Source: a bacterium
Lineage (GTDB): Bacteria > Patescibacteriota > Minisyncoccia > UBA6257 > GWB1-50-10
Reading direction: 5' to 3'
Assembly: GCA_021815205.1 (NCBI GenBank)
Contig: JAKAHD010000001.1
Span: 89,247-153,246, forward strand
Length of the DNA stretch: 64,000 nucleotides
In this document: one piece after another, positions 1,606-60,512 of the stretch
How the letters are laid out: every line of letters starts with the position of its first letter
Numbering within the stretch: position 1 is the stretch's first letter
Program-made: the position numbers and the translations under genes
The notes under the pieces: generated by a model
Database searches by the model: none
What the model saw: only the letters and a program-made list of their open reading frames with translations
Told to the model about the DNA's origin: nothing

Positions 1606-1696
1606 CTACGAAATACGAATTTTGTACGAATATACGAAAACGAATAGAATACATGAAGAATTATTCGTATATTCGTAATCAATTCGTAATTCGTAG
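1606..1696 (+). repeat. hairpin-rich leader repeat (family R3) copy 1, immediately 5' of the amidohydrolase start codon
   Basis: Nested inverted repeats 'ctacgaaatacgaatt...tacgaatatacgaaaa...ttcgtatattcgta...aattcgtaattcgtag', followed by 'agagaaattccATG'. Related copies at 13065-13177 and 57443-57546. Confidence 0.7.
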
Positions 1697-3175: not shown

Positions 3176-4278
3176 ACATGAAATTCAAAGCGCGCAAGGG
3201 GAACCCCGATTACGTATTCATCGCGTTTCTTGTTATCCTCGTCGTGTTCGGGCTCGTGATGCTCATGAGCGCCTCATCCGATCTTGGGAGAGCAAATTTC
3301 GGCGACAGTTTTTATTTTCTGAAACATCAGATCTTCTACGGGCTCATTCCGGGGATCATCGGTTTCTTTTTCGCGTATTTCTTTGAGTATCGGATATGGG
3401 AGAAGATAAGCCTCCCCGCACTGCTCGTGAGTATCCTTTTTCTTCTTCTTGTATTCAGTCCTCTGGGATTTCGCGCCCTGGGCGCCGAACGGTGGGTCTC
3501 GATCGGCGGCATACAGTTCCAGCCCGGCGAGCTTGTGAAACTCACCTTCATCGTGTACATGGCGGCGTGGATGGGAAAGAAAAGAGCGCGGGGGAAAAAA
3601 CTGGGTGAAGGATTCTTGCCGATGCTCATGCTCCTCGGCGCGGTATTGGTGCCGCTTGTGCTGCAGCCCGCGACGACCACGGCGGGCCTTATTTTTGCGT
3701 CCGTGCTCACCATGTACTTTATGAGCGGCGCGCGCGTGAAGTACGTTGCCGCGACGATCGCGCTTGCCGCGGTCGGGTTCGTATCACTCGTTATGATTAC
3801 GCCGTATCGCATGGAGCGTATTTTAGGATTTATTCATCCGCAGGCGGATCCGCTCGGGAAGACCTACCAGATCAATCAGACGCTCATGGCAGTCGGATCG
3901 GGAGGCGTGTGGGGCGTAGGGTACGGCCGTTCGACCACGAAGCTCGGCGCTCTTCCCGAACCGATGGGGGATTCCATCTTCGCCGTGATCGGCGAGGAGC
4001 TCGGTTTCGCGGGATCTATAGCGCTCATCCTTTTCTTTTTACTCTTCGTATGGCGGGCGTTCATAATCGCAAAGAAGACCTCCGACGGCTTCGCGCGGCT
4101 TATGGTTGTGGGATTTGGAACGCTTATCGGCATTCAGGCGTTCGTGCATATCGGCGCGAATACCGGAGTGATTCCGCTTACCGGCGTACCGCTTCCTTTC
4201 ATCAGTTACGGCGGTACGGCGCTTGCGGTTTTTTTGACCATGAGCGGCATTATTGCTACGATTTCGAGAGGAAGATGA
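3172..4278 (+). CDS. ftsW: SEDS-family peptidoglycan glycosyltransferase FtsW
   Basis: 368 aa, about 10 TM helices, FtsW/RodA/SpoVE signature regions (PEPMGDSIFAVIGEELGF, SYGGTA). Position between mraY and murG supports ftsW. Confidence 0.8.
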   Translation: MNMKFKARKGNPDYVFIAFLVILVVFGLVMLMSASSDLGRANFGDSFYFLKHQIFYGLIPGIIGFFFAYFFEYRIWEKISLPALLVSILFLLLVFSPLGFRALGAERWVSIGGIQFQPGELVKLTFIVYMAAWMGKKRARGKKLGEGFLPMLMLLGAVLVPLVLQPATTTAGLIFASVLTMYFMSGARVKYVAATIALAAVGFVSLVMITPYRMERILGFIHPQADPLGKTYQINQTLMAVGSGGVWGVGYGRSTTKLGALPEPMGDSIFAVIGEELGFAGSIALILFFLLFVWRAFIIAKKTSDGFARLMVVGFGTLIGIQAFVHIGANTGVIPLTGVPLPFISYGGTALAVFLTMSGIIATISRGR

Positions 4279-4282
4279 AACG

Positions 4283-4375
4283 AAATCCTAAATTCGAAAT
4301 CCTAAATCCTAAACAAATTCAAAACACGTGTTTCAGTCATTGTGATTTTGTATTTCGGTCATTATTTAGGATTTG
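4283..4375 (+). repeat. MITE-like intergenic element (family R2) copy 1
   Basis: Terminal inverted repeats 'aaatcctaaa...tttaggattt' with internal palindrome 'aaaacacgtgtttc'. A second copy lies at 36346-36522. Confidence 0.6.
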
Positions 4376-4489
4376 GTGTTTGAAATTTGAAATTTTTATT
4401 CAAGTCCAAATGGAGTAATTTTGAAATTTAAAATTAAAAGACATTTAAAATTGATTAAAAATTTAAAATTGTGAATTAAAAATTAATAT

Positions 4490-13064: not shown

Positions 13065-13177
13065 CTACGAATTACGAATTGAGTACGAATATACGAAAAC
13101 GAAGAGATTTTTCACTGCGTTCAGAATGACACAAAAGGTACAAATTCGTATATTCGTAAGTCATTCGTATTTCGTAG
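13065..13177 (-). repeat. hairpin-rich leader repeat (family R3) copy 2, 8 nt upstream of the rplI start codon
   Basis: Read in gene orientation: 'gctacgaaatacgaat...tacgaatatacgaa...ttcgtatattcgta...aattcgtaattcgtagagaaatacATG'. Confidence 0.7.
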
Positions 13178-14950: not shown

Positions 14951-15419
14951 GGAGGAGGATTTGTGTTTGCGGAAGAAAACGATTCCGTATGATTTCGCCG
15001 CACATTCCCTCAAGGAAACGCAGGCGTTCGTGAGATCAATGCGGGAGGTGATGAAACGCGCGGACGGCGTCGGACTTTCGGCGAATCAGATCGGGCTTCC
15101 CTATCGCGTCTTTGTGGCACAAGTGCCGGACAGTCAGGGAGCACAGAAGTTCTACGCGGTCTTTAATCCGGAGATCGTGAAGCGGTCGAAAGAAACGGAG
15201 GCTCTCGAAGAAGGGTGCTTGAGCGTACCAAATACGTTCGGTTCCGTCGATCGGCATTACCGCGTGACGCTCACTGGATTCGATGCGCGCGGCAAGAAGC
15301 TCAAAATCAACGCGTGGGGACTCCTCGCGAGAGTGTTCCAGCACGAGGTGGATCACCTGGACGGGAAGGTGTTTGTGGATAAGGCGAAGATAGTGCACGA
15401 AGTCGGCGAGGATGGCTAA
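14919..15419 (+). CDS. def: peptide deformylase
   Basis: Motifs GVGLSANQIG, EGCLSVP and QHEVDHLDG (HExxH). Confidence 0.9.
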   Translation: MERKILRITNKEEDLCLRKKTIPYDFAAHSLKETQAFVRSMREVMKRADGVGLSANQIGLPYRVFVAQVPDSQGAQKFYAVFNPEIVKRSKETEALEEGCLSVPNTFGSVDRHYRVTLTGFDARGKKLKINAWGLLARVFQHEVDHLDGKVFVDKAKIVHEVGEDG

Positions 15420-15519
15420 TTTTTAATTTACAATTTTAAATGAATCAATTTTTAAAAATTAAAACATTACTACATTGAGTATTGAATGAAAATTTCAAAT
15501 TAAAAATTTAAGAATTAAA

Positions 15520-51828: not shown

Positions 51829-54138
51829 CTATTTTTTGAGAAGTTCTTTGAATAGATGCGGCGGGATGCGGACGTGTGCGCGTGCCTTGAGGCGCTCCTT
51901 CCCTTTTTTCTGCTTCTGCCACAGCTTCATTTTTCTCGTCCGGTCCCCTCCGTTTTTCCCAAAGTTGCCGAGTTCTTTCCGGAGCGCGGGGATGTCTTCG
52001 CGTGCGATCACTTTTCCGTGGTCCTTCGCCTGAATCGGCTGAGCGAACTGCTGTTGCGGGAGCGTCTTCTTCAGGCGCTCGACGAGCTCACGCGCTTCGT
52101 ATTGCAGCGTGCTCTTCGGAAAGAAGCGCGAGAGCCCCGGGATGATTTCTCCCGCAATCGCGATGTCGATCTTTACGATGTCGGCCTTCATGTAGTCCGC
52201 GAGCTCATAACTGAACGAAGCGTAGCCGGCGGTCGCGGATTTCAACTGGTCGTCAAAATCACTTACGAGTTCCGCAAGCGGCATGATTGCCTTGATTTCT
52301 GTTTGGTTTTGGAACGTCTCCGTCATGATGTTCGAGAATCTGAATTTGTTCTGGAGCGGGTAGATATTATTCAGAAATTCCGGCGAGGTGAGGATTACAA
52401 TCTTCACCATCGGTTCCCAAATCGCTTCGTATTCTTCAGGGATTTCTTCGGGCTTCACAATCTCGATCCACCCCCCTCTAGTTTTCACTTTATAAAGCAC
52501 CGAAGGAAATGTACTCACGGTCGTAACATGGAATTCGCGCCGGAGGCGTTCCGCGGTAATCTCGAAGTGAAGGTGCCCCAGGAATCCGACCTTAAATCCC
52601 CGCCCCAAGACCTCGTTCTGGTCCGGTTCGATATGGAGTGCCGAGTCATTGAGCCGCAGTTTATCGAAGCTTCGCTTCAGAAGATCATACTCGTCGTTGT
52701 CCTCCGGGTAAAAGGACACGAACACAACCGGTTGCGGCTCTTGGTAGCCGTGCAGCGCAAACGTTTTTGGATTCTGGCATTTGGATTTTGAGCTTACTAT
52801 CGTGTCCCCTATCTTCACGAGCGCAATATCCTTGATGCCGGTCGCGATGTACCCGATCTCTCCCGTTCCGAGTTTCTGTGTCGCGGTCAAGGGCGGAGCA
52901 AAAAAACCAACTTCCTTTATCTTCGAGGAAGCGCCGGATGCCGCAAGCGTAATAATGTCCGTTCCGTTTACCGTGCCTTCGAAGACGCGCACCGACGCGA
53001 TCACCCCCTTGTGATCGTCGTAGAAGGAATCGAAAATGAGTGCCCGCGCTGGGGCCGCCGATACTCGCTGATTTTGAGCTGATGCACGCTGATCCGTTTC
53101 TATCTCGACCGGTGAAGGTATTCGTTCAATGATTACTCGAAGCAGATCAGAAACCCCTTCTCCCGTTTTTGCGGAGACCATCATTATTTCATCGTCGGAT
53201 ATGTTCAGAAGTTCCGCGACCTCGTGCCGGATGCGCGCAAGCCCCTCCGTGTCTCCCCGCGCTTCGAGAATATCGATCTTATTTACCGCGCCGATGATCG
53301 TAAGTCCCGCACTGCGCGCCAAGTGAAGGTTTGCAAGGGTCTGTGCCTGGATTCCTTGGGTTGCGTCCACAAGGAGAATACCGCCCTCGACGGCCGCCAA
53401 GGCGCGCGACACCTCGTACGAGAAATCGGAGTGCCCCGGAGTATCAATCAAGTTGAGGATATATTCCTCAACTTGCGCGGAAGGTCGCGGAAGGGACGCG
53501 GAATCGCGCGGAATTTCACGGGCTGTGTCGTATACGACTCTTTGTATGTCGAGAGTCTTCGTTCCGAAATTAATGAGTAGCGCAAGTTTGTAGTCTGACC
53601 CCTTGAGATAGCTCCATAGCTGTTCTGTCTGTGGGCGGCCTATTTCCGGTAATGCTTTCAGCTCGATAAGTATTTTCTCTTCAATTATAAAATCCGGTTG
53701 GTAGGAACCGATTTTCTTGCCGTCGTAAAAAATTCCAATGTTTTTTTCGCTTTCGAACCGCAGGTTTCTCTTCTTGAATTCTTCTGCCAGGGCATTATGA
53801 TAGACGATCTCTTTATGTCCTAGACCTAGCCTTTTTCTTACCTCGAAAGCGGCGCCGCGTATTTCATAGGTAATGGTTTCGTATAGTAATTTACTTTCTG
53901 CGTCATTCCGCGTATCATTCTGCGTCATTCTGCGGTGAGGATGATAACGCATCCTCACAGGGGCCATTTTAATGGTGATCCCCCGCTCCCGTTCGAGTTC
54001 AAGCTGATCAAGATATTGTTCCTGCATGTGGCGCGTATCCACCGTGCCCGTAATTTCAAGGAACCGATCCGCGAGGGTTGACTTCCCGTGATCGATATGG
54101 GCGATGATGCAGAAATTTCTGATGTAGACTTCGTTCAT
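51829..54138 (-). CDS. lepA: translation elongation factor 4 (LepA) carrying an in-frame about 158-aa GxxExxY/PD-(D/E)XK-domain insertion in the G domain
   Basis: NFCIIAHIDHGKSTL, ERERGITIK, DTPGH, NKID and LepA C-terminal domain are all present. 769 aa versus about 600 typical. The extra segment lies between ITIKMAPVRMRY and EEYILNLIDTPGH. Confidence 0.85.
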   Translation of the reverse strand: MNEVYIRNFCIIAHIDHGKSTLADRFLEITGTVDTRHMQEQYLDQLELERERGITIKMAPVRMRYHPHRRMTQNDTRNDAESKLLYETITYEIRGAAFEVRKRLGLGHKEIVYHNALAEEFKKRNLRFESEKNIGIFYDGKKIGSYQPDFIIEEKILIELKALPEIGRPQTEQLWSYLKGSDYKLALLINFGTKTLDIQRVVYDTAREIPRDSASLPRPSAQVEEYILNLIDTPGHSDFSYEVSRALAAVEGGILLVDATQGIQAQTLANLHLARSAGLTIIGAVNKIDILEARGDTEGLARIRHEVAELLNISDDEIMMVSAKTGEGVSDLLRVIIERIPSPVEIETDQRASAQNQRVSAAPARALIFDSFYDDHKGVIASVRVFEGTVNGTDIITLAASGASSKIKEVGFFAPPLTATQKLGTGEIGYIATGIKDIALVKIGDTIVSSKSKCQNPKTFALHGYQEPQPVVFVSFYPEDNDEYDLLKRSFDKLRLNDSALHIEPDQNEVLGRGFKVGFLGHLHFEITAERLRREFHVTTVSTFPSVLYKVKTRGGWIEIVKPEEIPEEYEAIWEPMVKIVILTSPEFLNNIYPLQNKFRFSNIMTETFQNQTEIKAIMPLAELVSDFDDQLKSATAGYASFSYELADYMKADIVKIDIAIAGEIIPGLSRFFPKSTLQYEARELVERLKKTLPQQQFAQPIQAKDHGKVIAREDIPALRKELGNFGKNGGDRTRKMKLWQKQKKGKERLKARAHVRIPPHLFKELLKK
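53470..53960 (-). mobile_element. inserted element inside lepA encoding a GxxExxY (23S rRNA IVS-protein-like) domain, with inverted-repeat ends
   Basis: Insert encodes ...YEIRGAAFEVRKRLGLGHKEIVYHNALAEEFKKRNLRFESEKNIGIFYDGKKIGSYQPDFIIEEKILIELKAL. Low-coordinate end has 'cgcggaa' x4 (53475-53520). High-coordinate end has 'tcattc(c/t)gcg' x3 plus an 8-bp hairpin gtgaggat/atcctcac at 53935-53958. The ends are mutually inverted (cgcggaat / attccgcg). Confidence 0.45.
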
Positions 54139-54179
54139 ATTATTTTGAAATCAAAATCTCTGATGCTCAGTCAAAGCAG

Positions 54180-56291
54180 TTATTCCTGCCGTGTTGGTTG
54201 CGCCTCAAGCGTGAGCGTGAGTAGTATCCGCTTATCCGGATCGTTCGTGTCGTAGGTAAAGACGGAACTCTTGGATTCCGCCCAATAGTATTTGAAAGGC
54301 GCATTGATGACAAGATGAAGCGAGTTTTGTACTCCCGATTGACGCTCGAAAATGAAAGTGTATACCTGTCCCGGCGCGAGTGCGGGAAGATTGGTGTAAG
54401 AGGTCTGATAGCGGAGCTGCATCGTCTTCGACTGTCCCGCGGGAGTCTGAAGCCACGCGGCGAACACATTCTTTCCAAACTCGTTCCTTTGCCACGCCTT
54501 GAAATTCGTGAGGTATACCTCCTTCTCTGTTGCGGCGAGATCCGGGTTTGTTGTGTAACTCGAGCGGGTGTACTCAAGCGTGGAGTTCACCGTCCTTGCG
54601 TCATTTCCTTGAATACTCACGAGCGATGTGCCGGGTTCCGTGAAGACCTGCAGAAAATCTTTGTTCACCACCCGATACCATGGATCTTTCTGGGTGTTGC
54701 CGCTATGGGTTCTTGTGATGTTTACACTCGTAAACGTATTCCCGTTCGTATCAAGATCCACCTTCGCACTGACGCTTTCCCCGATGAACGCATCGGTTTT
54801 TCCTCCAGCGACGTTCGCGTTCACGACCGCAAGATACGAACCCCAGAAGTTGTCGGGGAGTGAGTAGACCGAACCGTCGAGGTTATGTGACGTAAGGAAA
54901 TCGGAGAGCGTCGCATCCTTCGCGTAGTACATAATGTCTTTTTTCTGCACCGCTTCTTTTATCTTTTGGAAGAGTTGATTTCTTCCTTCGGAAGAGAGAT
55001 CATTCAGCTTCTGGAGCAGGATCGGCGCGAGCACTTTGAGTATCTTCTTCGGCTGGCCCGCCTTTTTATCCGCTCCCGCCTCGACTTCCCGTTGTACCTC
55101 AGGAAGGAAGTTATCGCTCGTAATGGTTATACCGTATTCGGGAAGCGGAATGGGGCCTGTCACGTCGAGGAGGGATTGCACGACGTTGATATTGAGGGCG
55201 ATCGCCATATCGAACGTTTCGTTACGATCCGAGTACATCTTCGATGCCTCGAGGAAGTGCACGATCGTCTTTGCGGAAGTCGGAAAATCAAAGAACCAGT
55301 TCGCGTCGCGCGCTCCCCAGTTGCGCGTGACGCCCTGCAATTGTTCCGGAGGAATCACCTTGAGGTCGAGCTGTCCGTCGGGATCGTAAATATCCCGCAC
55401 GTCTATGTTTGTCATCTGTCCTCCCGAGACCGTGATATCGGCATAACTCCCCACAAAACCGCCTCCCGGGCGGATCTCGGAGGGATTTTGGAAGAGAAGC
55501 ACTATATGGTGATCCCCCGGCGCTTGAAACCACGCGAGGAGACTTCCTAAGGCGCTGTCCCAACTGTAGAGCTCGGCGCTGTATTTCAGGTACTCCCCTC
55601 CGATCGCGGTATCAACTGACTGGAATGACGAGGAAAGGTTTTTAAGATTCGAGGTGGTATTTTTAATGTCGAGCGTCTCGGTATTGATCTGTTGGATGAG
55701 AGTATGGAGGGAAGAGAGCGCCGCAATAAGCGACTTTCCGTCGTGTACGAAGTATCCGAAGCCGTTTGTCTGGAGATCCTGGAGCCCCTGGCTCAGTTGA
55801 AGGAACTGGAGGTTCAGCGAGGTGATTTTCCCAAGAAACCCCATCCCCTGTTGGACGACGGGAACAATATTCCCCACGACATCAAAGATGGTTTGTCCGA
55901 CGCCGTTCCGCACCATGGAGTTGATGTTTCCGAGCGCTTCCTTGTTTTTCTCGAGATACGCGGATGCGGCTTGAGGTTCGAGATTTTTGAGCGCGGTTGC
56001 GGACGCGAGAAAATTTTTCATAATGGACGAGCTTGTGTCGGCGACGCTCGCCTTAATGGTCCTCAAGTTGTTTACGAGAAGGAGCACGAAGAGCACGACC
56101 CCGACAAGGAGGAGCCCGAATATGCCTATGAGCGCCCGTTTCAGAATCACAAATCGGGGCGGTGCAGCTTCCGGCACGTGCGCGAGGTTCACCGTACCGA
56201 ACTTATTGAGCCGCTCGTAGTTGAAGTTTGGGTTCCTCACGTCGACGAGGATCGGGTCGATGTTCTTTTTTGGTACTGACTTCTTTTCCAT
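54180..56291 (-). CDS. large membrane-anchored protein, DUF4012-like, associated with glycosyltransferase cluster
   Basis: 703 aa. Single N-terminal TM (LIGIFGLLLVGVVLFVLLLV) then large extracytoplasmic domain. Family assignment from overall architecture and context only. Confidence 0.35.
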   Translation of the reverse strand: MEKKSVPKKNIDPILVDVRNPNFNYERLNKFGTVNLAHVPEAAPPRFVILKRALIGIFGLLLVGVVLFVLLLVNNLRTIKASVADTSSSIMKNFLASATALKNLEPQAASAYLEKNKEALGNINSMVRNGVGQTIFDVVGNIVPVVQQGMGFLGKITSLNLQFLQLSQGLQDLQTNGFGYFVHDGKSLIAALSSLHTLIQQINTETLDIKNTTSNLKNLSSSFQSVDTAIGGEYLKYSAELYSWDSALGSLLAWFQAPGDHHIVLLFQNPSEIRPGGGFVGSYADITVSGGQMTNIDVRDIYDPDGQLDLKVIPPEQLQGVTRNWGARDANWFFDFPTSAKTIVHFLEASKMYSDRNETFDMAIALNINVVQSLLDVTGPIPLPEYGITITSDNFLPEVQREVEAGADKKAGQPKKILKVLAPILLQKLNDLSSEGRNQLFQKIKEAVQKKDIMYYAKDATLSDFLTSHNLDGSVYSLPDNFWGSYLAVVNANVAGGKTDAFIGESVSAKVDLDTNGNTFTSVNITRTHSGNTQKDPWYRVVNKDFLQVFTEPGTSLVSIQGNDARTVNSTLEYTRSSYTTNPDLAATEKEVYLTNFKAWQRNEFGKNVFAAWLQTPAGQSKTMQLRYQTSYTNLPALAPGQVYTFIFERQSGVQNSLHLVINAPFKYYWAESKSSVFTYDTNDPDKRILLTLTLEAQPTRQE

Positions 56292-57442: not shown

Positions 57443-57546
57443 CTACGAAGTACGAATTGCTTACGAATATACGAAAAAAAACGTACAACTCGCAACTTAC
57501 AGCTTAATGAGCGGATTCGTATATTCGCGTAAAATTCGTATTTCGT
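57443..57546 (-). repeat. hairpin-rich leader repeat (family R3) copy 3, 8 nt upstream of the GT4 start codon
   Basis: Gene orientation: 'gctacgaaatacgaatt-ttacgaatatacgaat...ttttcgtatattcgtaagcaattcgtacttcgtagagaaatacATG'. Confidence 0.7.
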
Positions 57547-57696
57547 AGCATGGCATAGTTTTTACCCTCCTCCGCGAGCGAAAGCGAGTAGAGAAAGTCA
57601 TGCCCGTAACCCCCCCACATCAGAGAATGCCCCGCGCGTGATCCCATGGTGTGGAGGTAAAGTCGCGGGGCTCCACATTGCATTTTTGGAACGTTT

Positions 57697-59613: not shown

Positions 59614-59747
59614 GCCTAAAATTTTAAATTTATAATTACCTAATTTTTAATTCACAATTTTAAATTTTTAATCAATTTTAAATGCGTTCTAATTTTAAAT
59701 TTCAAAATTATTTCATTTCGATTTGAATAAAAATTTCAAATTAAAAA

Positions 59748-60419
59748 TTATTTTATGACCATGGTAAATTCTCCTCTCCCCTTCTCTCCTTTGAAATACT
59801 CCTGTGCCTCGCGCACGGTGCCGTGCCAGACCTCTTCGTGTAATTTCGTGAGTTCTTTCCCCACGATAAGACGCTGATCCGCTCCGAATGTTTTCTTGAT
59901 ACTCTCGAAAGTTTTTTGGAGCCGGTGCGGCGATTCGTAGAGCACGATGGGGCGGATGATAATTTTGCAAAGTTTTTTAAAGAATGTTGCTCTCCCTTTT
60001 TTGTGCGGCGGGTAGCCGACGAACGTAAACTCATTCGCGTGGATGCCTGATACGGAGAGAAGCGTCGCGATGGCCGACGGTCCCGGGATCGGTATGATGC
60101 TTATCTCCGGATGGCGTTCGCGAAGATACGCCACGAGCTTCGCGCCGGGATCCGCGATTCCCGGCGTACCCGCGTCGCTTACGAATGCGGCGCTTTTCCC
60201 TTCATCAAGAAAATCGGCCACCCTTTTATAGAATGATTCCGCCGCGTACTCGTCCGCGCGCCATGCGGGCCTTTGAAGTCCGAGATGGTTCAAGATTTTT
60301 CTTGCAACGCGCGTATCCTCGGCGAGTACAAGATCAACCTCCTTCAAGGTCTCGATCGCGCGGAGCGTGAGATCGTTCAGGTTCCCGATCGGTGTGGCGA
60401 CGATGTAAAGGGTAGGCAT
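59748..60419 (-). CDS. rsmI: 16S rRNA (cytidine1402-2'-O)-methyltransferase
   Basis: MPTLYIVATPIGNLNDLTLRAIETLKEVDLVLAEDTR tetrapyrrole-methylase-fold N-terminus typical of RsmI. Confidence 0.85.
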   Translation of the reverse strand: MPTLYIVATPIGNLNDLTLRAIETLKEVDLVLAEDTRVARKILNHLGLQRPAWRADEYAAESFYKRVADFLDEGKSAAFVSDAGTPGIADPGAKLVAYLRERHPEISIIPIPGPSAIATLLSVSGIHANEFTFVGYPPHKKGRATFFKKLCKIIIRPIVLYESPHRLQKTFESIKKTFGADQRLIVGKELTKLHEEVWHGTVREAQEYFKGEKGRGEFTMVIK

Positions 60420-60512
60420 GAAAAGAAATTTGAAATTTGAAATTTTTAATTTTAAATCAATTCTAATTTTTTCAATTTAAAATTCAATTAAAATTTAGAA
60501 CTTGAAATTTTC

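What the first reader, a model, noticed from the sequence alone, without database searches (positions are those of the whole stretch)
53470..53960. In-frame insertion of a GxxExxY / PD-(D/E)XK (23S IVS-protein-like) domain inside the LepA GTPase, flanked by inverted repeats
LepA is otherwise complete. It carries about 158 extra residues between the RGITIK strand and DTPGH. The insert matches the GxxExxY family (YEIRGAAFEVRKRLGLGHKEIVYHNALAEEF...DFIIEEKILIELKAL), the proteins usually encoded in 23S rRNA intervening sequences. At the DNA level the insert is bounded by 'cgcggaa' x4 at one end and 'tcattcYgcg' x3 plus an 8-bp hairpin at the other, and the ends are mutually inverted. No intein splice-junction residues are evident, and the reading frame is maintained, so the domain is presumably displayed on the G domain of an essential translation factor. 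Both a mobile-element origin and a functional role would be unusual.
Basis: partly seen in the sequence, partly recalled or inferred. Interest (0 to 1): 0.8.

Follow-up and report, generated by a model that had tools for sequence, protein, structure and literature searches.

The report
Nuclease cassette nested in-frame in LepA
The translation factor LepA of this candidate-phyla-radiation bacterium carries, in frame in a surface loop, a complete and conserved nuclease domain flanked by hairpin-forming repeats, and the same cassette sits in frame in at least ten other protein families, so it looks like an undescribed non-splicing, intein-like selfish element.

Summary
lepA (51829-54138, minus strand, 769 aa) contains a full-length GxxExxY / PD-(D/E)XK domain (aa 82-207). 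It lies between strands beta2 and beta3 of the G domain, in frame, with no intein, intron or Rfam signature.

The flanks are inverted arrays of ACGC(A/G)GA(A/C) units spaced 10-12 nt apart. Each junction also forms a hairpin that pairs element sequence with the adjacent host codons.

This is not a one-off. Among 80 Patescibacteria genomes the same cassette is in frame in LepA (43), RecG (30-31), LeuRS (5) and one other gene. Metagenomic proteins show it inside GatB, RtcB, asparagine synthase, transketolase, a P-type ATPase and glycosyltransferases.

Catalytic residues are invariant. The domain is more conserved than LepA (67% against 49%). Junction hairpins covary with the host's synonymous codon choice.

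The distribution is patchy: the nearest LepA orthologues (81% identity) lack the cassette. Hairpins-only and arms-only alleles exist at the same site.

Best reading: a translated, non-splicing selfish nuclease cassette with palindromic arms. The mobility mechanism is inferred, not shown. The "23S IVS protein" label is not supported. I found no published description.

The parts
51829..54138 (-). lepA (EF4), 769 aa, host gene. All LepA domains are present.
   Evidence: TIGR01393 scores 639.7 bits (cutoff 533.9). GTP_EFTU, EF-G_D2, EFG_III, EFG_C and LepA_C all match.
53467..53943 (-). Whole insert relative to a naive allele (aa 66-224). In sense orientation it reads: element half of hairpin H1, 5' arm, nuclease ORF, 3' arm, element half of hairpin H3.
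   Evidence: comparison with insert-free orthologue L091, which is identical up to CGT TAT and resumes at TAT..CTG AAC. Searches give the sequence.
53935..53958 (-). Junction hairpin H1 (sense: GTGAGGATG-cgttat-CATCCTCAC). Host V-R-M codons pair with element-coded H-P-H.
   Evidence: I10; MFE structure; present in most LepA loci; own partner 9.4/12 against 7.4/12 swapped, 0 of 2000 permutations.
53896..53934 (-). 5' arm (sense: CGCAGAATGA CGCAGAATGATA CGCGGAATGA CGCAGAA). It encodes RRMTQNDTRNDAE, predicted to be a disordered linker.
   Evidence: unit ACGC(A/G)GA(A/C), spacing 10-12 nt; pLDDT below 50 for aa 69-82.
53518..53895 (-). GxxExxY / PD-(D/E)XK nuclease domain, aa 82-207. It has no start or stop codon of its own. 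Motif residues are G107, E110, Y113, P148-D149, E159 and K161.
   Evidence: these residues are invariant in 27 LepA-borne copies. AF2 pLDDT 93.8. PD-(D/E)XK fold neighbours.
53476..53517 (-). 3' arm (sense: TTCCGCG x4, spaced 10-11 nt), complementary to the 5' arm. It encodes EIPRDSASLPRPSA, predicted to be a disordered linker.
   Evidence: pLDDT below 50 for aa 208-225.
53449..53475 (-). Junction hairpin H3 (sense: CAAGTTGAGGA-atata-TCCTCAACTTG). Element-coded Q-V-E pairs with host I-L-N-L codons.
   Evidence: (I6); own partner 11.0/12 against 8.9/12 swapped, 0 of 2000 permutations, 27 distinct host halves.
53056..53088 (-). Second, ORF-less arm-like array inside lepA. Four direct ATC(A/G)GC(G/T) units at 10-11 nt spacing encode TDQRASAQNQRVSA in the G-domain/domain II linker.
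   Evidence: Relatives have similar peptides at this site (L090 'RESAPSQRESA').

Best explanation
This is a selfish cassette, now or formerly mobile, made of a GxxExxY PD-(D/E)XK nuclease ORF between two inverted arrays of short GC-rich units. It sits in frame at the tip of the beta2-beta3 hairpin of the LepA G domain.

The cassette has no start, stop or promoter of its own, so it is expressed only by read-through translation of lepA. The repeat arms are translated into low-complexity flexible linkers. These let the nuclease fold as an independent domain hanging off an otherwise intact LepA. Functionally this is like an intein with a homing endonuclease that never splices.

At the nucleic-acid level the two arms pair with each other. 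Each junction forms a hairpin between element sequence and the neighbouring host codons, giving a three-helix junction. I infer that this structure is the cis-acting site on which the encoded structure-specific nuclease acts, in single-stranded or cruciform DNA, to spread or retain the cassette.

Shown: the anatomy, in-frame nesting in many hosts, purifying selection on the nuclease, covariation of arms and junction hairpins, and a patchy distribution with intermediate alleles.

Inferred: translation of the fusion, nuclease activity, and the mobility mechanism.
For: 1. A full-length nuclease domain lies in frame between LepA model positions 63 and 64.

2. A DNA-level scan that is independent of gene calling kept 80 loci, and in all of them the frame runs from host N-part through both arms into host C-part. 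By my classification they are LepA 43, RecG 30 (plus one truncated by Ns), LeuRS 5 and one other. The window's own lepA was added to these for the analyses. LepA inserts have 21 different lengths although the repeat period is 10-12 nt.

3. Twenty long proteins that carry the domain internally belong to GatB, LeuRS, RtcB, RecG, Wzy_C, asparagine synthase, transketolase, P-type ATPase and GT1/GT4 families (two had no other Pfam match).

4. GxxExxY, PD and ExK residues are invariant in 27 copies. Domain identity is 67% against 49% for the host LepA C-terminal 420 aa. Third codon positions are near saturation in both, so this reflects old, strong purifying selection.

5. The arms are complementary in 78 loci: mean duplex energy -57 against -36 kcal/mol for shuffled flanks, median z -4.5. 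The MFE fold of the window RNA is H1 / arm stem / H3 with no unpaired bases between helices.

6. Junction hairpins covary with host synonymous codons. For example AAC pairs with GTT (Val) and AAT with ATT (Ile); GTG, GTC and GTT pair with CAC, GAC and AAC (His, Asp, Asn). Own-versus-swapped tests give 0 of 2000 permutations at both junctions. The hairpins are significantly stronger than control windows in the same genes for LepA at both junctions, RecG at the 5' junction and LeuRS at the 3' junction.

7. The AF2 model has a confident domain and disordered linkers at the beta2/beta3 tip.

8. Free-standing relatives have their own ATG and stop and are flanked by the same kind of inverted unit arrays.

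9. The distribution is patchy. The nearest LepA orthologues (80-81% identity) lack the cassette, while carriers are 61-68% identical. A naive allele, a hairpins-only allele, arms-only alleles and the full allele all occur at the same loop.

10. Domain GC is about 11 points below host GC but tracks it, r = 0.79.
Against: There is no direct evidence of translation, nuclease activity or movement.

Synonymous sites are near saturation between copies, so no recent transfer is visible. Long vertical persistence with such strong conservation also fits domestication.

Domain clades follow the host gene (76 of 81 nearest neighbours share it). Jumps between genes are therefore rare.

Junction hairpins are not universal. 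The RecG 3' and LeuRS 5' junctions are not significantly structured.

No classical target-site duplication or transposase is present.

One locus (L004) has an in-frame TAA at the 3' junction. It arises from a C-to-A change that also breaks a hairpin pair. It may be a sequencing error or a pseudogene.

Only one copy of this cassette family lies in the 64-kb window.
Confidence: 0.6

Rival explanations
1. Domesticated module. The nuclease domain is now a functional accessory of the host proteins, for example a defence or nucleic-acid quality-control activity tethered to abundant housekeeping proteins. It is retained for the cell's benefit and is no longer selfish.
For: The domain is more conserved than LepA itself, and synonymous sites are near saturation. 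Catalytic residues are invariant. Copies form clades specific to each host gene. Domain GC tracks host GC.
Against: The same cassette sits in at least 10 functionally unrelated proteins, including glycosyltransferases, GatB, RtcB, transketolase and a P-type ATPase. The nearest LepA relatives do without it. Selection on arm and junction palindromes at the nucleic-acid level has no obvious role for a protein module. Free-standing copies with the same arms exist. There is no match to known defence families.
Confidence: 0.17
2. RNA-level removal or bypass. The arms and junction hairpins form a processing or bypass signal, so that mature LepA lacks the insert. This could resemble a 23S IVS, an archaeal-type intron resealed by RtcB, or a translational hop. 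Only a fraction of ribosomes would read through to make the nuclease.
For: A compact three-helix junction is conserved with covariation. The architecture of a stem with an ORF in the loop resembles rRNA IVSs. The PD-(D/E)XK superfamily includes RNA splicing endonucleases, which appear as weak fold neighbours. L004 and L003 carry in-frame stops inside palindromic inserts.
Against: All 80 scanned loci, across all the host genes, keep the frame and lack stops through the 3' arm into the host C-part. That is unnecessary if the insert were removed. There is no Rfam intron or other RNA family match, even at E <= 1. The L004 stop is a single point change that also breaks the hairpin. Religation of mRNA is not known in bacteria (general knowledge).
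Confidence: 0.1
3. Intein. The insert is spliced out of the protein after translation.
For: It is an in-frame insertion between conserved motifs of conserved proteins, it carries a nuclease, and its distribution is patchy.
Against: There is no Hint/intein domain hit. Junction residues are not C/S/T...HN|C/S/T. The flanks are low-complexity, vary in length and are dictated by DNA palindromes. The nuclease fold fills the whole structured part of the insert.
Confidence: 0.02
4. Assembly or binning artefact, or a chimera.
For: None. Many homologous fragments end at contig edges near the repeats, which shows that the repeats do disturb assembly.
Against: The identical protein is on 13 contigs from different samples and assemblers. 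The same architecture is found in 80 species-level genomes.
Confidence: 0.01

Closest known systems
Inteins carrying homing endonucleases
   Same: A selfish in-frame insertion between conserved motifs of conserved housekeeping proteins. It carries a nuclease, always occupies the same site in a given host gene, and is patchily distributed among relatives.
   Different: It has no Hint splicing domain or splice-junction residues, so the insert must stay in the protein. The nuclease is PD-(D/E)XK rather than LAGLIDADG or HNH. The flanks are DNA palindromes translated into linkers.
ShiLan-type non-splicing insertion in a phage DNA methylase (PMC11855218)
   Same: An insertion read in frame with the host gene without stops. 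It is neither an intein nor an intron, it is nuclease-associated, and it is predicted to loop out of the host fold.
   Different: In ShiLan the HNH nuclease is encoded out of frame with its own GTG and TAA. Here the nuclease is itself in the host frame with no start or stop. ShiLan has no palindromic arms or junction hairpins, and it is a phage rather than a CPR chromosomal element.
Rickettsia palindromic elements and other intragenic MITEs (PMC10969869)
   Same: Palindromic repeat elements inserted in frame into unrelated housekeeping genes and tolerated as surface peptides. Arms-only mini versions exist here too.
   Different: RPEs carry no enzyme. Here an autonomous form carries a conserved nuclease. 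The arms are arrays of 6-7-nt units with a period of about 10.5 nt. The junctions copy the host flank in inverted orientation.
REP / RAYT (REPIN) systems
   Same: An enzyme gene flanked by inverted arrays of its presumed cognate short repeats, plus ORF-less repeat doublets elsewhere. Unit sequences differ between enzyme clades.
   Different: RAYTs are HUH/Y1 transposases and are intergenic. This enzyme is a PD-(D/E)XK nuclease and is nested inside coding sequences.
23S rRNA intervening sequences with an ORF (e.g. the Coxiella S23p IVS, abstract of PMC4990558 as listed)
   Same: A long stem formed by inverted flanks with an ORF in the loop, inserted into an essential, conserved gene.
   Different: The host here is an mRNA. 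The IVS protein family PF05635 does not match. RNase III excision would destroy the message. The frame is conserved.
PD-(D/E)XK nucleases with solved structures: Cas4 SSO0001, lambda/LHK exonucleases, Hjc-like resolvase ST1444, T7 endonuclease I
   Same: A shared catalytic core and fold (TM about 0.5). There is a weak profile match of the PD...ExK core to T7 endonuclease I (E = 0.05, Phage_endo_I below cutoff).
   Different: No close homologue has been solved. The similarity does not identify a subfamily or a substrate.

Membership tests
GxxExxY / PDDEXK_3 (TIGR04256, PF13366) | HMM score above the curated cutoff over the full profile length | tested here: met
   PF13366: 112-116 bits (cutoff 22), profile positions 2-116 of 117. 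TIGR04256: 117-120 bits (cutoff 35).
GxxExxY / PDDEXK_3 (TIGR04256, PF13366) | GxxExxY motif plus the PD...(D/E)xK catalytic residues | tested here: met
   G107, E110, Y113; P148-D149; E159-L-K161. All are invariant in 27 LepA-borne copies.
GxxExxY / PDDEXK_3 (TIGR04256, PF13366) | PD-(D/E)XK alpha/beta fold | tested here: met
   AF2 pLDDT 93.8. Foldseek top hits are all PD-(D/E)XK nucleases.
LepA / EF4 (TIGR01393) | Equivalog HMM above cutoff, with all five domains including LepA_C | tested here: met
   639.7 bits against a cutoff of 533.9. GTP_EFTU, D2, EFG_III, EFG_C and LepA_C are all found.
Intein | Hint splicing domain, an N-terminal Cys/Ser, and a C-terminal His-Asn followed by Cys/Ser/Thr | tested here: not met
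   No Hint/intein Pfam hit. The insert starts with H66-P67 and ends at E224|Y225. The flanks are variable repeats.
23S rRNA IVS protein (PF05635, 23S_rRNA_IVP) | Match to PF05635 / the four-helix-bundle fold | tested here: not met
   Only PF13366 matches the insert. The predicted fold is alpha/beta.
23S rRNA IVS element | Located inside an rRNA gene helix | tested here: not met
   No rRNA in the window. The host is lepA. The closest free-standing relatives lie between protein genes.
Group I / group II intron | Match to intron covariance models | tested here: not met
   No Rfam hit at gathering threshold over the window, nor at E <= 1 over 53300-54150.
Homing endonuclease element (functional class) | Same insertion site across lineages, with patchy presence among close relatives | tested here: met
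   Same site in 43 scanned LepA genomes, about 30 RecG and 5 LeuRS. The nearest LepA orthologues are empty.
Homing endonuclease element (functional class) | The nuclease cleaves the cassette-less allele and is copied in by repair | not testable with these tools
   This needs biochemistry or genetics. Domain and host identities correlate only weakly (Mantel r = 0.22), but no recent transfer is visible.
In-frame palindromic MITE (RPE-like) | A palindromic element inserted in frame in unrelated ORFs, with ORF-less copies | tested here: met
   Arms complementary. At least 10 host families. Arms-only alleles L088 and P0392.
In-frame palindromic MITE (RPE-like) | Many copies within one genome | tested here: inconclusive
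   There is one nuclease-bearing copy (tblastn), and the CGCGGAA / TCATTCYGCG unit clusters occur only in lepA, apart from a second arm-like array at 53056-53088. The rest of the genome is not available.
REP/RAYT-type system | HUH (Y1) transposase flanked by inverted cognate repeats | tested here: not met
   The flank anatomy is analogous, but the enzyme is PD-(D/E)XK, not HUH.

The most novel reading that the evidence does not exclude
GxxExxY cassettes are a previously unrecognised class of mobile element that is abundant in CPR bacteria. A structure-specific PD-(D/E)XK nuclease has no expression signals of its own and is made only as an internal domain of the invaded protein. It moves, or is retained, through hairpin or cruciform DNA intermediates that generate or require inverted copies of the host flank at both junctions. 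It may also be the trans-acting enzyme behind the many ORF-less in-frame palindromic mini-inserts in CPR genes, as RAYTs are for REPINs. An even bolder variant is that the conserved three-helix RNA junction lets some transcripts or ribosomes skip the insert.
Probability: 0.35. Interest if true: 0.9.

Novelty: new variant of a known kind. Interest (0 to 1): 0.8.

Why it matters
First, it would add a third way for a nuclease-bearing selfish element to live inside an essential gene, alongside self-splicing introns and inteins. This way involves no splicing at all. The element stays in frame, lands in a surface loop, and uses translated palindromic arms as linkers.

Second, it gives a function-linked context to GxxExxY / PF13366, a very large family listed as function unknown (18,224 representative proteins at E <= 1e-3; 'Unknown' in PMC3424549).

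Third, it offers a candidate enzyme for the spread of in-frame palindromic elements of the RPE type. In my understanding, how those elements spread is unresolved.

Fourth, the junction palindromes force amino acids on the protein according to the neighbour's synonymous codons. This is a clear case of nucleic-acid structure overriding protein sequence.

Fifth, there are practical consequences. The repeats break assemblies: many of the related lepA fragments found are partial and some stop at the insert. Some of these split or fused genes carry the source annotation 'GxxExxY protein'.

Tried and rejected
- Intein: rejected. No Hint domain and the wrong junction residues.
- Known intron or RNA family: nothing in Rfam, even at E <= 1.
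- 23S IVS protein family: PF05635 does not match. Free-standing relatives are not in rRNA.
- Defence-system or phage families: no PADLOC or PHROGs hit.
- Recent horizontal transfer as the reason the domain is more conserved than its host: rejected, because third codon positions are near saturation in the domain too.
- The L004 stop codon as a forced product of the palindrome or as evidence for bypass: rejected. It is a C-to-A change that also breaks a pair.
- Target-site duplication (the TGAGGAT direct repeat at both junctions, D15): judged by eye against one other locus, L008, the register of similarity was not the same. An inverted copy of the adjacent flank explains the data better (9 of 9 against 7 of 9). 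This was not tested statistically.
- Sequence search of solved structures: only marginal hits, T7 endonuclease I at E = 0.05. I treat this as a lead, not a result.
- Literature: searches for GxxExxY, PDDEXK_3, in-frame palindromic insertions in CPR, and Patescibacteria protein insertions found no description of this arrangement.
Full report
**1. Observation**

The window is about 50% GC and looks like a Parcubacteria/Paceibacteria (CPR) genome, judging by the relatives of its genes. It encodes lepA on the minus strand at 51829-54138, a single 769-aa ORF. The protein passes the LepA equivalog model: TIGR01393 scores 639.7 bits against a cutoff of 533.9. The match is split at model position 63/64. 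A full-length PF13366 / TIGR04256 (GxxExxY, PD-(D/E)XK) domain fills the gap, at aa 88-202 and E about 1e-32 to 1e-34.

- four CGCGGAA at 53476-53513;
- three TCATTCYGCG at 53903-53934, mutually inverted with the first set;
- a 9-bp hairpin at 53935-53958.

The identical protein is encoded on 13 contigs from different samples, so this is not an assembly artefact.

**2. Anatomy**

On the sense strand the order is:
- host ...P-V-R-M-R-Y;
- hairpin H1 (GTGAGGATG / CATCCTCAC);
- a 5' arm of about four CGC(A/G)GAATGA units;
- the nuclease ORF (aa 82-207), with no start or stop of its own;
- a 3' arm of four TTCCGCG units;
- hairpin H3 (CAAGTTGAGGA / TCCTCAACTTG);
- host Y-I-L-N-L-I-D-T-P-G-H.

RNAfold of the region gives exactly H1, arm stem and H3, with no unpaired base between the helices.

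AlphaFold2 places the insert at the tip of the beta2 (57-65) / beta3 (226-232) hairpin of the G domain. The nuclease domain has pLDDT above 90. The arm-encoded peptides (aa 69-82 and 208-225) have pLDDT below 50. The domain alone models at pLDDT 93.8, and its structural neighbours are all PD-(D/E)XK nucleases: Cas4 SSO0001, LHK and lambda exonucleases, and an Hjc-like resolvase, with TM about 0.5. A profile search of solved structures gives only a marginal match of the PD...ExK core to T7 endonuclease I, E = 0.05.

**3. It is a family, not a curiosity**

At least 23 metagenomic LepA fragments that are 56-70% identical carry the insert at the same site.

I then ran a DNA-level scan of one genome per species with an alignment of the domain alone. 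It found 412 loci. The best 80 are mostly labelled Patescibacteria; a few records carry other labels, such as Gammaproteobacteria, Bdellovibrionales and Nanoarchaeota.

Extending the frame from the domain in both directions shows the domain nested in frame in several genes:
- LepA, 43 loci;
- RecG, 30 loci plus one truncated by Ns, between motif II (DEQHRFGV.QR) and motif III (MTATPIPRTLAL);
- LeuRS, 5 loci, between NWIGKS... and EVFTTRPDT;
- one further gene.

In every one of the 80 loci the frame runs through both arms into the host's C-terminal part.

A search of 1.8 billion representative proteins found 18,224 family members at E <= 1e-3. Pfam scans of 20 long ones show the domain nested in GatB, LeuRS, RtcB, RecG, a Wzy_C ligase, asparagine synthase, transketolase, a P-type ATPase and many GT1/GT4 glycosyltransferases; two had no other Pfam match.

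The closest free-standing relatives are about 140 aa and about 50% identical. They lie between ordinary genes, have their own ATG and stop, and are also bracketed by inverted arrays of 6-nt units: CGCTGA in one and ACGGAC in another.

**4. Selection at two levels**

*Protein level.* The GxxExxY, PD and ExK residues are invariant in 27 LepA-borne copies. Among 39 LepA loci the domain is 67% identical on average, against 49% for the following 420 aa of LepA. Identities of domain and host correlate only weakly (Mantel r = 0.22, 7 of 2000 permutations). Third codon positions are near saturation in both. The high conservation therefore reflects strong, old purifying selection rather than recent transfer.

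*Nucleic-acid level.* Each arm carries about three ACGC(A/G)GA(A/C) units spaced 10-12 nt apart. The two arms are complementary in 78 loci: -57 against -36 kcal/mol for shuffled flanks, median z -4.5.

The junction hairpins are the most striking feature. The element-side half is the reverse complement of the adjacent host codons and follows their synonymous choices. At H3, host Asn AAC pairs with GTT (Val) and AAT with ATT (Ile); Leu TTG or CTG pairs with CAA or CAG. At H1, host Val GTG, GTC or GTT gives His, Asp or Asn, and Arg AGG, AGA or CGC gives Pro, Ser or Ala.

Complementarity with a locus's own partner is 11.0/12 against 8.9/12 when partners are swapped between loci (3' junction), and 9.4 against 7.4 (5' junction). 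Both give 0 of 2000 permutations.

The same logic is visible in LeuRS (ACCTC/GAGGT against ACTTC/GAAGT) and at the RecG 5' junction. Against control windows from the same genes, the hairpins are significant for LepA at both junctions, RecG at 5' and LeuRS at 3'. They are not significant for RecG at 3' or LeuRS at 5'.

Because synonymous sites are near saturation, this pairing must be either continuously selected or repeatedly regenerated.

**5. Gain and loss**

I searched with a LepA from which the insert had been removed. The nearest orthologues (P0304-P0307, 80-81% identical, 607-608 aa) lack the domain. Carriers are more distant, at 61-68%.

The same loop shows an allele series:
- a naive allele (L091, 'RYELGQERYE', identical DNA up to CGT TAT);
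- a hairpins-only allele (L090, 'TYHSENSKFI', with H1 and H3 abutting and no arms or ORF);
- arms-only mini-elements (L088, which folds into the same three-helix shape at -52.9 kcal/mol, and by its loop peptide P0392);
- the full cassette.

By eye, roughly 20 of the 119 nearest LepAs carry other, AT-rich repeat-like mini-inserts in this loop, judged from their peptides only. Most of them end in ...SEY before ILNL, a codon pattern that can form an H3-type junction palindrome.

Domain GC is about 11 points below host GC (GC3 0.28 against 0.43) but tracks it, r = 0.79.

**6. Interpretation**

The consistent frame despite 21 insert lengths built from 10-12-nt units, the lack of any start or stop, and the intact host C-terminal parts argue that the fusion is what is translated. 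They also argue that LepA functions with the domain displayed on a tolerant loop.

Several things mark the cassette as a selfish element rather than a designed accessory domain:
- it is promiscuous across unrelated host proteins;
- free-standing copies have the same arms;
- ORF-less derivatives exist;
- it is patchily distributed;
- its GC is low.

I infer that the arm stem and junction hairpins are the cis sites used by the encoded nuclease. The nuclease is probably structure-specific, in the way junction- or hairpin-cutting PD-(D/E)XK enzymes are. This step is not shown.

Rival readings are domestication (about 0.17), RNA-level removal or bypass (about 0.10), an intein (about 0.02) and an artefact (about 0.01). 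Two loci with in-frame stops inside palindromic inserts (L004 TAA, L003 TGA) keep the RNA or bypass idea alive. The L004 stop, however, is a point change that also breaks the hairpin.

**7. Comparison with known systems and novelty**

The cassette behaves like an intein with a homing endonuclease, but it fails every intein criterion. It resembles Rickettsia palindromic elements in being an in-frame palindromic insertion (PMC10969869), but it carries an enzyme. It resembles the ShiLan non-splicing insertion in a phage methylase (PMC11855218), but there the HNH is out of frame and there are no arms. Its layout, with an enzyme between inverted cognate repeats, recalls REP/RAYT (a comparison from my own knowledge), but the enzyme class differs.

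The '23S IVS protein' label is not supported:
- PF05635 does not match;
- the window has no rRNA;
- a CPR rRNA-insertion survey reports LAGLIDADG, GIY-YIG and 23S_rRNA_IVP ORFs and does not mention PDDEXK_3 (PMC11270868).

PF13366 is listed as function unknown (PMC3424549). 'GxxExxY' appears only incidentally in three papers of the library, and I found no description of this arrangement.

I rate it a new variant of a known kind, namely in-frame selfish insertions. There is a real chance, about 0.35, that it is a new class of mobile element.

Noticed in passing
window 1606-1696, 13065-13177, 57443-57548: Three copies of an intergenic palindromic element of about 90-110 nt. Each is built from TACGAA(T) units in inverted arrays with 7-11-nt spacing and folds at -35 to -40 kcal/mol. 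Two of them directly abut the identical string CATGTATTTCTC, which could be a minus-strand gene start. The architecture matches the cassette arms, but the unit differs and there is no ORF.
   Followed up: partly
window 4276-4470, 15418-15508, 59641-59754, 60422-60457: AT-rich inverted-repeat elements (units such as AAATTTGAAATT and TAAATCC). They look related to the AT-rich in-frame mini-inserts (peptides like EIRNSKFEI) seen in the LepA loop of other CPR genomes.
   Followed up: no
window 53056-53088 (-), lepA aa 353-366: A second small insert in lepA. Four direct ATC(A/G)GC(G/T) units at 10-11-nt spacing, a one-sided arm with no inverted partner, encode TDQRASAQNQRVSA in the linker before domain II. 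Close relatives have similar peptides there (L090 RESAPSQRESA).
   Followed up: partly
L004 4660-4700; L003 5530-5560; L089 2011-2094: Related MAGs have lepA interrupted in three ways: an in-frame TAA in the H3 hairpin (L004), an in-frame TGA inside another small palindromic insert (TCCGCC...GGCGGA, L003), and a frameshift (L089). These could be sequencing errors, decay or recoding; which is unresolved.
   Followed up: partly
proteins P0305-P0422, LepA beta2-beta3 loop: This loop is a hotspot. By eye, roughly 20 of the 119 nearest LepA representatives carry 10-60-aa inserts with repeat-like peptides of other, AT-rich types. Most end in ...SEY before ILNL, a codon pattern that can form a junction palindrome with the ILN codons. 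The DNA of these was not examined.
   Followed up: partly
proteins P0180, P0183, P0188 and others: Many proteins of about 260-275 aa consist of two tandem GxxExxY domains. The family also counts 18,224 representatives at E <= 1e-3, so it is very large for a family of unknown function.
   Followed up: no
protein P0164: One host of the nested cassette is RtcB, the RNA ligase that seals archaeal-type introns. This is a curious coincidence given the RNA-processing rival hypothesis.
   Followed up: no
window 54180-56291 (-) and loci L001, L003, L090, L091: A DUF4012 protein of about 660-700 aa lies upstream of lepA on the same strand in the window and in L001, L090 and L091. In L003 a MurJ gene lies between the two. 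A DivIC-like gene follows lepA in the loci that extend that far. Local synteny is therefore conserved whether or not lepA carries the cassette.
   Followed up: no
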